DNA of 64,000 bases, taken from Harriotta raleighana. Taxonomy: Eukaryota. Position 1 is the stretch's first letter. Each line of letters starts with the position of its first letter. Location: positions 10,975,134 to 11,039,133 of the forward strand of contig JBNZDD010013732.1 in assembly GCA_050575255.1 (NCBI GenBank). Reading direction: 5' to 3'. The position numbers and the translations under genes are program-made. The notes below the pieces were generated by a model, which worked only from the letters and a program-made list of their open reading frames with translations, ran no database searches and was not told the DNA's origin. This document shows positions 63,186 through 63,381 of the stretch, one piece after another.

Positions 63186-63381
63186 CTTCTGTATCTGTTG
63201 CGTTGCTGATAACATTTGTCAGTTTGGCTGTGAAGCATGTATAGGTTGCATTATTTTTCTTCAAGGTTTTGTCGTGTCCTGTTGCAAGAGAGATTACACA
63301 CTCAAATGGTTTGTATGGCCACAGACATTTGTACTCGTGTGTAGCCAAGGCACAAGGATTGTTAATAAGCAAACCACCTTT
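63186..63381 (-). CDS. PNPLA8: Exon of a PNPLA8-like (calcium-independent phospholipase A2-gamma, patatin domain) gene; homolog of the penultimate coding exon
   Basis: Acceptor TTTCTTGTTTCCCCATTTTGCAG, donor GAAG|GTTTGT, 196 nt, open frame KGGLLINNPCALATHEYKCLWPYKPFECVISLATGHDKTLKKNNATYTCFTAKLTNVISNATDTE. It aligns without gaps to recalled human DGGLLLNNPSALAMHECKCLWPDVPLECIVSLGTG...KLSNVINSATDTE. Upstream exons lie outside the window; it may be a paralog or pseudogene. Confidence 0.88.

What the first reader, a model, noticed from the sequence alone, without database searches (positions are those of the whole stretch)
63186..63381. PNPLA8-like exon has lost the catalytic aspartate (DGG to KGG): pseudoenzyme or dying duplicate
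Seen: intact splice sites and an open 196-nt frame, but the first codon is AAA (Lys), and SLGTG reads SLATG, HECK reads HEYK and GRYE reads GHDK. Known: patatin phospholipases use a Ser (GxSxG)-Asp (DGG) dyad, and as I recall Asp627 is the first codon of the 196-nt human exon. Asp to Lys needs two substitutions, so a single base error is unlikely. Inference: this copy cannot be an active iPLA2-gamma. It is either a catalytically dead paralog retained from an old duplication of the PNPLA8/L1-CAM block or a pseudogene.
Basis: partly seen in the sequence, partly recalled or inferred. Interest (0 to 1): 0.7.

Follow-up and report, generated by a model that had tools for sequence, protein, structure and literature searches.

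The report
Dead PNPLA8 fragment left beside NRCAM
This is a leftover piece of a broken second copy of the lipid-cutting enzyme gene PNPLA8: only two of nine coding exons were found, the other one carries a stop and a frameshift, and a complete copy lies elsewhere in the same genome, so it is most likely an ordinary dead gene fragment and not a working "pseudoenzyme".

Summary
The exon is real: 63381-63186 (minus strand), AG/GT ends, 196 nt, first codon AAA where 121 of 121 homologous motifs have Asp. It is not a pseudoenzyme. A complete PNPLA8 with all three catalytic motifs lies on another contig (C13535), beside THAP-, DnaJ- and LRRN3-like genes. In 484 kb around the window only two of its nine coding exons have a counterpart. 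The second lies 5.6 kb upstream, just outside the window, and has an in-frame TAG and a 1-nt frameshift, both shared by two related species, so they are old lesions and not assembly errors. The glycine-loop, nucleophile and last exons were not found. Introns still align at 70-80%, so this is a DNA-level duplicate and not a genome-duplication-age paralogue. The relic sits on the NRCAM side of the human-like NRCAM-PNPLA8-THAP5-DNAJB9 block: likely the old address, left when a rearrangement split the block in chimaera ancestors. One loose end: this exon has stayed open, with a mild synonymous skew, but it is no more conserved than its flanks. No RNA could be checked. Ordinary unprocessed pseudogene; low interest.

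The parts
63186..63381 (-). Relic of the PNPLA8 DGG exon (8th of 9 coding exons counted from the MSRIK start of the intact copy); open 196-nt frame, DGG to KGG, 20 of 65 residues changed
63379..63381 (-). AAA codon at the place of the catalytic Asp codon (GAT in the intact copy)
   Evidence: contigs of related organisms
63382..63517 (-). Acceptor and upstream intron sequence still alignable with the intact gene's intron 7 (whole 362-column block with the exon: 76% identity)
63094..63185 (-). Donor and the first part of intron 8, alignable with the intact gene; homology ends before the place where the last exon should begin
62629..62891 (.). Interspersed repeat copies lying where the last coding exon would be expected; no trace of that exon
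63518..64000 (-). Spacer that runs out of the window towards the rest of the relic. Beyond the window's right end (G000:C13732:11044096-11044254, i.e. 68963-69121 if the window's count is run on) lies the relic of coding exon 5, with an in-frame TAG, a 1-nt deletion and 9+3-nt deletions, followed by pieces of intron 5 (68344-68962) alignable at 70-81%

Best explanation
The exon is one of two surviving pieces of a broken, intron-bearing second copy of PNPLA8 whose other surviving exon has a stop and a frameshift, so it likely makes no protein and is likely decaying as an unprocessed pseudogene, while the complete copy on another contig is predicted to be the working enzyme. Shown: the two relic exons with alignable introns, their lesions, the complete second gene, the absence of the other exons from the DNA searched, NRCAM on one side of the relic and THAP/DnaJ/LRRN3-like genes beside the intact copy. 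Inferred: the ancestral order was NRCAM-PNPLA8-THAP5-DNAJB9-LRRN3 as in human; a rearrangement in the chimaera lineage split this block at PNPLA8 and duplicated at least the stretch from exon 5 to intron 8 (5.6 kb or more); the THAP5 side kept the whole gene and the NRCAM side kept a copy that was probably incomplete or soon inactivated. With selection gone, the Asp codon changed twice like many other conserved sites. I put about 0.9 on 'dead pseudogene relic' and about 0.6 on the split-block history.
For: (1) Intact gene at G000:C13535:1188885-1199989: nine exons with AG/GT ends give one open frame of 716 residues with DGGGTR, GVSTG and DGG; 630 of 716 positions match Callorhinchus PNPLA8. 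(2) tblastn of five full-length PNPLA8 proteins against 484 kb around the window finds only exons 5 and 8; local alignments of exons 2, 3, 4, 6, 7 and 9 in the expected intervals score within shuffled controls, exons 5 and 8 far above. Whole-genome searches with exons 1, 3, 7 and 9 each give 1 match, the intact gene. (3) Relic exon 5 has TGG to TAG, a 1-nt deletion and 12 deleted bases. Relic contigs of organisms B and C keep the TAG and show no gap at the 1-nt deletion, while a second contig in each, the intact paralogue, has TGG. C has further small insertions in this exon and B's contigs break inside it. (4) Over 76 nt of exon 5, intact copies of G000, B and C differ only at silent sites (6:0, 6:0, 3:0 silent:replacement); relic copies differ 3:3, 4:4, 2:1. 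(5) Protein tree on exons 5+8: end branch 0.44 for the relic against 0.016 for the intact copy. (6) Exon 8 relic differs from B and C at 14 and 13 of 196 bases, its flanks at 42 of 441 and 67 of 777: no excess conservation (Fisher p 0.37, 0.47). (7) The L1-family gene on the relic's 3' side is NRCAM, 99% to Callorhinchus NRCAM, on the same strand; human order NRCAM, PNPLA8, THAP5, DNAJB9, IMMP2L, LRRN3 (PMC6834745 passage), with PNPLA8 15 kb from NRCAM (PMC3377676 table passages).
Against: Exon 8 has stayed open with both splice sites in G000 and, as far as the listed differences show, in B and C; a rough neutral estimate of staying open is 0.1-15%, softened by the fact that it was picked because it is open. 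Between G000 and B/C its changes are 8 silent to 6 replacement, p 0.02-0.09 under transition-biased neutral models, though the certainly dead exon 5 shows the same ratio (Fisher p 1.0). Pairwise dN/dS of relic against intact is 0.35, which mixes a constrained and a free lineage. The intact-versus-relic contrast in silent:replacement changes is itself only p 0.06. Assembly gaps at 56585-57395 and 90104-90218 could hide an exon. No RNA was available. The ancestral order was not checked in any shark or other chimaera genome, and the two contigs cannot be oriented to each other.
Confidence: 0.88

Rival explanations
1. Retained pseudoenzyme: a full-length, catalytically dead PNPLA8 paralogue kept for a scaffold or lipid-binding role.
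For: Open 196-nt frame with intact splice sites, two-step Asp to Lys change; mild silent skew.
Against: Seven exons not found; exon 5 has a stop and frameshift in three species; structural invariants are hit too (C17, G33, R36, G41, S49, L50, S60); no protein of 115-2000 residues resembling the relic passed E 1e-10 among 10 candidates (weak by the tool's own note).
Confidence: 0.01
2. Exonic remnant kept for a non-coding job: the exon (or the pair) doubles as an enhancer or 5' untranslated exon for NRCAM, so it outlived its gene at the old site.
For: It sits on NRCAM's 5' side on the same strand; two exons and some intron survive while neighbouring exons vanished; frame and splice sites of exon 8 persist against a rough 0.1-15% neutral chance; the class exists (PMC2831330, abstract).
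Against: Its divergence from B and C (7%) equals that of its flanks (9%); the relic changed far faster than the intact exon, whereas the abstract of PMC2831330 describes the corresponding exons as unusually conserved; patchy survival is also what deletions and repeat insertions give; NRCAM's start site was not located.
Confidence: 0.07
3. Assembly or sequencing artefact: a mis-assembled haplotype of the single PNPLA8 gene.
For: The two copies lie on different contigs of a fragmented assembly (13732 contigs).
Against: The copies differ at 36 of 195 exon bases and have different flanks; organisms B and C each yield two separate contigs, one relic-like and one intact-like; organism A's contigs and most of its reads match the relic region at 99% or more.
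Confidence: 0.01
4. Ancient ohnologue from vertebrate whole-genome duplication of a PNPLA8/L1-family block, now dying.
For: An L1-family gene is next door; the genome has four L1-family genes. The tree does not place the relic firmly (support 55/0 with holocephalans).
Against: Introns align at 70-81% and dS is about 0.4; the neighbour is NRCAM, the orthologue's own neighbour in human; relic copies of B and C carry the Ser found in holocephalan PNPLA8 where sharks, rays and bony fish have Gly.
Confidence: 0.03

Closest known systems
PNPLA8 / iPLA2-gamma (patatin family, Pfam PF01734; Ser483-Asp627 dyad in GVSTG and DGG per PMC10291501, passages read)
   Same: Exon length, phase and sequence (70% amino acid, 82% DNA to the intact exon of this genome); intron flanks homologous.
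   Different: Asp lost, 7 further invariant residues changed, no glycine-loop or nucleophile exon found, upstream exon broken, no last exon.
Unprocessed (duplicated) pseudogene fragments (class definition recalled)
   Same: Exons with homologous introns, disabling lesions, missing exons, faster protein change, an intact parent elsewhere.
   Different: Here the dead copy holds the address that the gene has in human (next to NRCAM) and the living copy sits with THAP5/DNAJB9 away from NRCAM.
Duplications at rearrangement breakpoints (Drosophila inversions; PMC1885836, passages read)
   Same: [quoted passage not shown]
   Different: The duplicated stretch here is at least 5.6 kb against a median of 321 bp there; inverted orientation and the second breakpoint were not shown.
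Exonic remnants with cis-regulatory function (PMC2831330, abstract and outline read; NRCAM and PNPLA8 have 0 hits in its main text, supplements not opened)
   Same: An exon that outlived its host gene next to a large neural gene.
   Different: No whole-genome duplication behind it, and no excess conservation over flanks was found.

Membership tests
Active PNPLA8 / patatin phospholipase | Catalytic Asp in DGG | tested here: not met
   KGG against Asp in 121 of 121 matches
Active PNPLA8 / patatin phospholipase | Nucleophile Ser in GVSTG (exon 4) | tested here: not met
   Exon 4 not found in 11 kb upstream or by tblastn in 484 kb; the genome-wide DNA search was crowded by repeats, 40 of 7478 candidates scored
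Active PNPLA8 / patatin phospholipase | Glycine-rich oxyanion loop (exon 3) | tested here: not met
   One match in the genome, the intact gene; none locally
Pseudoenzyme (expressed, folded, catalytically dead paralogue) | Continuous reading frame over the domain | tested here: not met
   Stop and frameshift in exon 5; exons 6, 7, 9 not found
Pseudoenzyme (expressed, folded, catalytically dead paralogue) | Purifying selection on the fold | tested here: not met
   7 of 37 invariant columns changed; branch 0.44 against 0.016; a mild silent skew remains
Pseudoenzyme (expressed, folded, catalytically dead paralogue) | Expression | not testable with these tools
   No RNA holder listed
Unprocessed pseudogene | Homology to an intact gene including introns | tested here: met
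Unprocessed pseudogene | Disabling lesions that are not sequencing errors | tested here: met
   TAG and 1-nt deletion shared with organisms B and C
Unprocessed pseudogene | Neutral evolution | tested here: inconclusive
   Total divergence equals flanks; silent skew p 0.02-0.09 in exon 8; few changes
Breakpoint-associated duplication | Copies flank a break in an ancestral gene order | tested here: inconclusive
   Fits the human order; no shark or other chimaera genome could be read
Breakpoint-associated duplication | Copies inverted at the two ends of one inversion | not testable with these tools
   The copies lie on separate contigs
Cis-regulatory exonic remnant | Conservation above neutral flanks | tested here: not met
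   7.1% against 9.5% and 6.6% against 8.6%, p 0.37 and 0.47; low power
Cis-regulatory exonic remnant | Enhancer activity or chromatin marks | not testable with these tools
   No such data here

The most novel reading that the evidence does not exclude
When the PNPLA8-THAP5-DNAJB9 block moved away from NRCAM in chimaera ancestors, this exon stayed behind because it also serves NRCAM, as an enhancer or a spliced 5' exon: a natural split of coding and regulatory roles without whole-genome duplication, which would predict that the human Asp627 exon is itself an NRCAM regulatory element.
Probability: 0.07. Interest if true: 0.5.

Novelty: new member of a known kind. Interest (0 to 1): 0.14.

Why it matters
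As a dead duplicate it matters little. It is a usable marker of a chimaera-lineage rearrangement that separated PNPLA8-THAP5-DNAJB9 from NRCAM, and a warning for annotation: an open exon with a lost catalytic residue can look like a pseudoenzyme until the neighbouring exons are checked. Only if the exon proved to regulate NRCAM would it be of wider interest. No paper on it was found: 0 hits for PNPLA8 + pseudogene + chimaera and for holocephalan + PNPLA8; none of the 10 listed of 120 papers mentions Callorhinchus milii.

Tried and rejected
Pfam and PDB searches with the 65-residue relic: no hits. Homologue search with the relic itself: 10 candidates, none passing, weak. Genome-wide DNA search with 9 kb of the intact gene was swamped by repeats, and the one with exons 4-5 scored 40 of 7478 candidates, finding the relic exon 5 but not usable for exon 4. 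RNA: no RNA holder listed, so expression and junction phase were not tested. Raw reads of organism A gave only 1-2x depth over the exon. Runs X5-X9 had small word shares; X5, X6 and X9 were laid, X7 and X8 were not. A weak exon-7 alignment near 68065-67811 scored 79 against a shuffled maximum of 80 and was rejected. PDB and Atlas could not name the L1-family gene; the protein search did. First tree had one mis-cut row (Pristiophorus) and was redone; 17 of 120 homologues were used, picked by name to span taxa. In one search the end columns 1 and 65 were mis-scored as gaps, so column 1 was counted separately. One search's translation had an exon boundary off by one and was corrected. No THAP or DnaJ remnant near the relic. 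Seven other single DNA matches between the two regions (69-154 bases) were mostly not followed and may be low-copy repeats. NRCAM's transcription start was not located; no CpG island showed in 40-70 kb. Processed pseudogene rejected because introns align. The AG four bases into the exon could act as another acceptor but would shift the frame and supplies no Asp, since exon 7 was not found.

Full report
Observation. The minus strand at 63383-63184 reads pyrimidine tract, AG, 196 nt, GT. A search of the own genome with this peptide gave 2 matches among 7 candidates scored: itself and C13535:1199310-1199501 at 70% identity. That second exon starts with GAT after the acceptor. Asp precedes the GG motif in 121 of 121 matches in the 120 listed homologues, and a review gives Ser483-Asp627 in GVSTG and DGG as the PNPLA8 dyad (PMC10291501, passages). 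Coordinates above 64000 below run the window's count on into the neighbouring DNA of contig C13732.

The intact gene. On C13535 nine coding exons from 1188885 to 1199989 have canonical ends and join to one frame of 716 residues with DGGGTR, GVSTG and DGG (exons upstream of the MSRIK start were not sought). It matches Callorhinchus milii PNPLA8 at 630 of 716 positions and sharks and rays at 433-511, so the genome is most likely a chimaera (inferred). Upstream lie a THAP-domain gene and a DnaJ-domain gene and, 130 kb further, an LRRN3-like gene (LRRN1-like clusters score almost as high). The names THAP5 and DNAJB9 rest on domain and order. No NRCAM-like exons lie in 297 kb of this contig, of which 27,890 bases are N.

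What is left at the window's locus. Against 484 kb around the window, five full-length PNPLA8 proteins find only exon 8 (63384-63187) and exon 5 (69125-68970, beyond the window's end). Sensitive local alignment of exons 2, 3, 4, 6, 7 and 9 in the expected intervals stayed at or near the range of 30 shuffles each (exon 3 scored 78.5 against a shuffled maximum of 73.5, the others below their maxima), while exons 5 and 8 scored 296 and 350 against shuffled maxima of 79 and 87. Genome-wide, exons 1, 3, 7 and 9 each match only the intact gene. Relic exon 5 has a 9-nt and a 3-nt deletion, TGG to TAG, and a 1-nt deletion followed at once by a stop. Intron sequence beside both exons aligns at 70-81%, so the copy arose from DNA, not mRNA. 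Two assembly gaps (56585-57395; 90104-90218) could hide an exon but would not change the lesions in exon 5.

The lesions are old and real. Nine of 12 listed runs hold part of the stretch, none on record as RNA. Laid on exon 5, organisms B and C each give a relic-like and an intact-like contig: only the intact-like ones read Trp at the stop, and the relic-like ones show no gap at the 1-nt deletion. The 12 deleted bases are present in C (and, from a loose end, in B), so those deletions came later; C has its own small insertions and B's contigs break inside the exon. Over 76 compared bases the intact copies differ by 6, 6 and 3 silent and 0 replacement changes, the relics by 3:3, 4:4 and 2:1. For exon 8, contigs of A, B and C span the first codon with no difference listed there, but the table was cut, so AAA in those species is likely and not proven.

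Is exon 8 under selection? It differs from the intact exon at 36 of 195 bases and 20 of 65 residues, including 7 of 37 columns that are invariant in at least 119 of 120 homologues, plus the Asp. Its branch in a tree of exons 5+8 is 0.44 against 0.016. Against B and C it differs at 14 and 13 of 196 bases, its flanks at 9.5% and 8.6% (p 0.37, 0.47). Results against my reading: those 14 changes are 8 silent to 6 replacement, p 0.004-0.02 without and 0.02-0.09 with transition bias, and the frame has stayed open where a rough neutral estimate gives 0.1-15%. But the dead exon 5 shows the same silent share (p 1.0), and this exon was flagged because it is open.

Where and when. The L1-family gene on the relic's 3' side is NRCAM (99% to Callorhinchus NRCAM), same strand, with coding exons 76-130 kb beyond the window's left end; its transcription start was not located. 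The human order is NRCAM, PNPLA8, THAP5, DNAJB9, IMMP2L, LRRN3 (PMC6834745, one passage), PNPLA8 starting 15 kb from NRCAM (PMC3377676, table passages). Here the block is split at PNPLA8: NRCAM plus relic on C13732, followed by other genes (CTLH/Armc9-domain, NACHT and sortilin-domain genes); whole PNPLA8 plus THAP, DnaJ and LRRN3-like genes on C13535. The simplest account, inferred, is a rearrangement that duplicated at least exon 5 to intron 8 and left the NRCAM-side copy to decay; whether it ever had exons 1-4 cannot be told. Decayed partial gene copies at breakpoints are known from Drosophila (PMC1885836, passages), though much shorter there. Timing is loosely bracketed: relics of B and C have the holocephalan Ser where sharks, rays and bony fish have Gly, and the relic keeps an ancestral Arg where three intact holocephalan copies share His; a clade of relic plus G000 intact is borderline rejected (p-AU 0.045) and the relic's place with holocephalans has support of only 55/0. 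This points weakly to the chimaera stem lineage.

Comparison and verdict. It fails every tested criterion for an active patatin enzyme or a pseudoenzyme and meets those for an unprocessed pseudogene, neutrality being inconclusive. The boldest reading not excluded is an exonic remnant serving NRCAM (class described in PMC2831330; abstract and outline seen; NRCAM and PNPLA8 absent from its main text; its supplements were not opened and may list candidates). No excess conservation supports that. Searches for a published account found none, and the scan's own notes had nothing near this place or on PNPLA8. New member of a known kind; interest 0.14.

Noticed in passing
G000:C13732:10844600-10899200 (left of the window) and the window itself: NRCAM coding exons all lie left of the window (first coding exon about 76 kb off); most of the window is probably NRCAM 5' intron or upstream DNA. 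The start site was not located; a microsatellite-rich stretch near 50-52 kb is only a guess.
   Followed up: partly
L013-L017 and L063 (G000:C13535:1025000-1200000): LRRN3-like, DnaJ-domain, THAP-domain and intact PNPLA8 genes keep the human 7q31.1 order but are followed by other genes instead of NRCAM: an aldo-keto reductase (Pfam), and frames recalled as EFCAB6-like and SULT4A1-like (no Pfam hit; names from memory).
   Followed up: partly
L010:6758-7105, L011:7065-8603, L034:5160-5585 (about 75-105 kb right of the window): A CTLH/Armc9-domain exon (recalled as WDR91-like), a 513-residue NACHT frame and sortilin-domain exons lie upstream of the relic, on the minus strand.
   Followed up: partly
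L017:4102-4273 against runs X5 and X9: The intact exon 5 differs from its orthologues at 6 silent sites in 76 bases, about as many as separate it from the relic at silent sites; silent sites at the intact locus may change fast. Small numbers.
   Followed up: no
L047:6325-6330 in run X5: Organism B's relic exon 5 appears to be interrupted by an insertion (contigs break there with unrelated loose ends).
   Followed up: no
window 56585-57395 and 51278-51389: Runs of N (811 and 112 bases) inside the window.
   Followed up: no
G000:C13535:1002100-1004400: Frames resembling a retroelement's coding region, in pieces (resemblance recalled, not searched); observed only.
   Followed up: no
L043-L046: The genome holds four L1-family cytoplasmic-domain matches (C13732, C13696, C3192, C13526); only the first was named by a search.
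   Followed up: partly
window 42834-42921: An 88-base, 76% match to C13535:1202263-1202349, 2 kb past the intact PNPLA8, in the same orientation as the relic; the query region has many repeat hits, so probably a repeat.
   Followed up: partly
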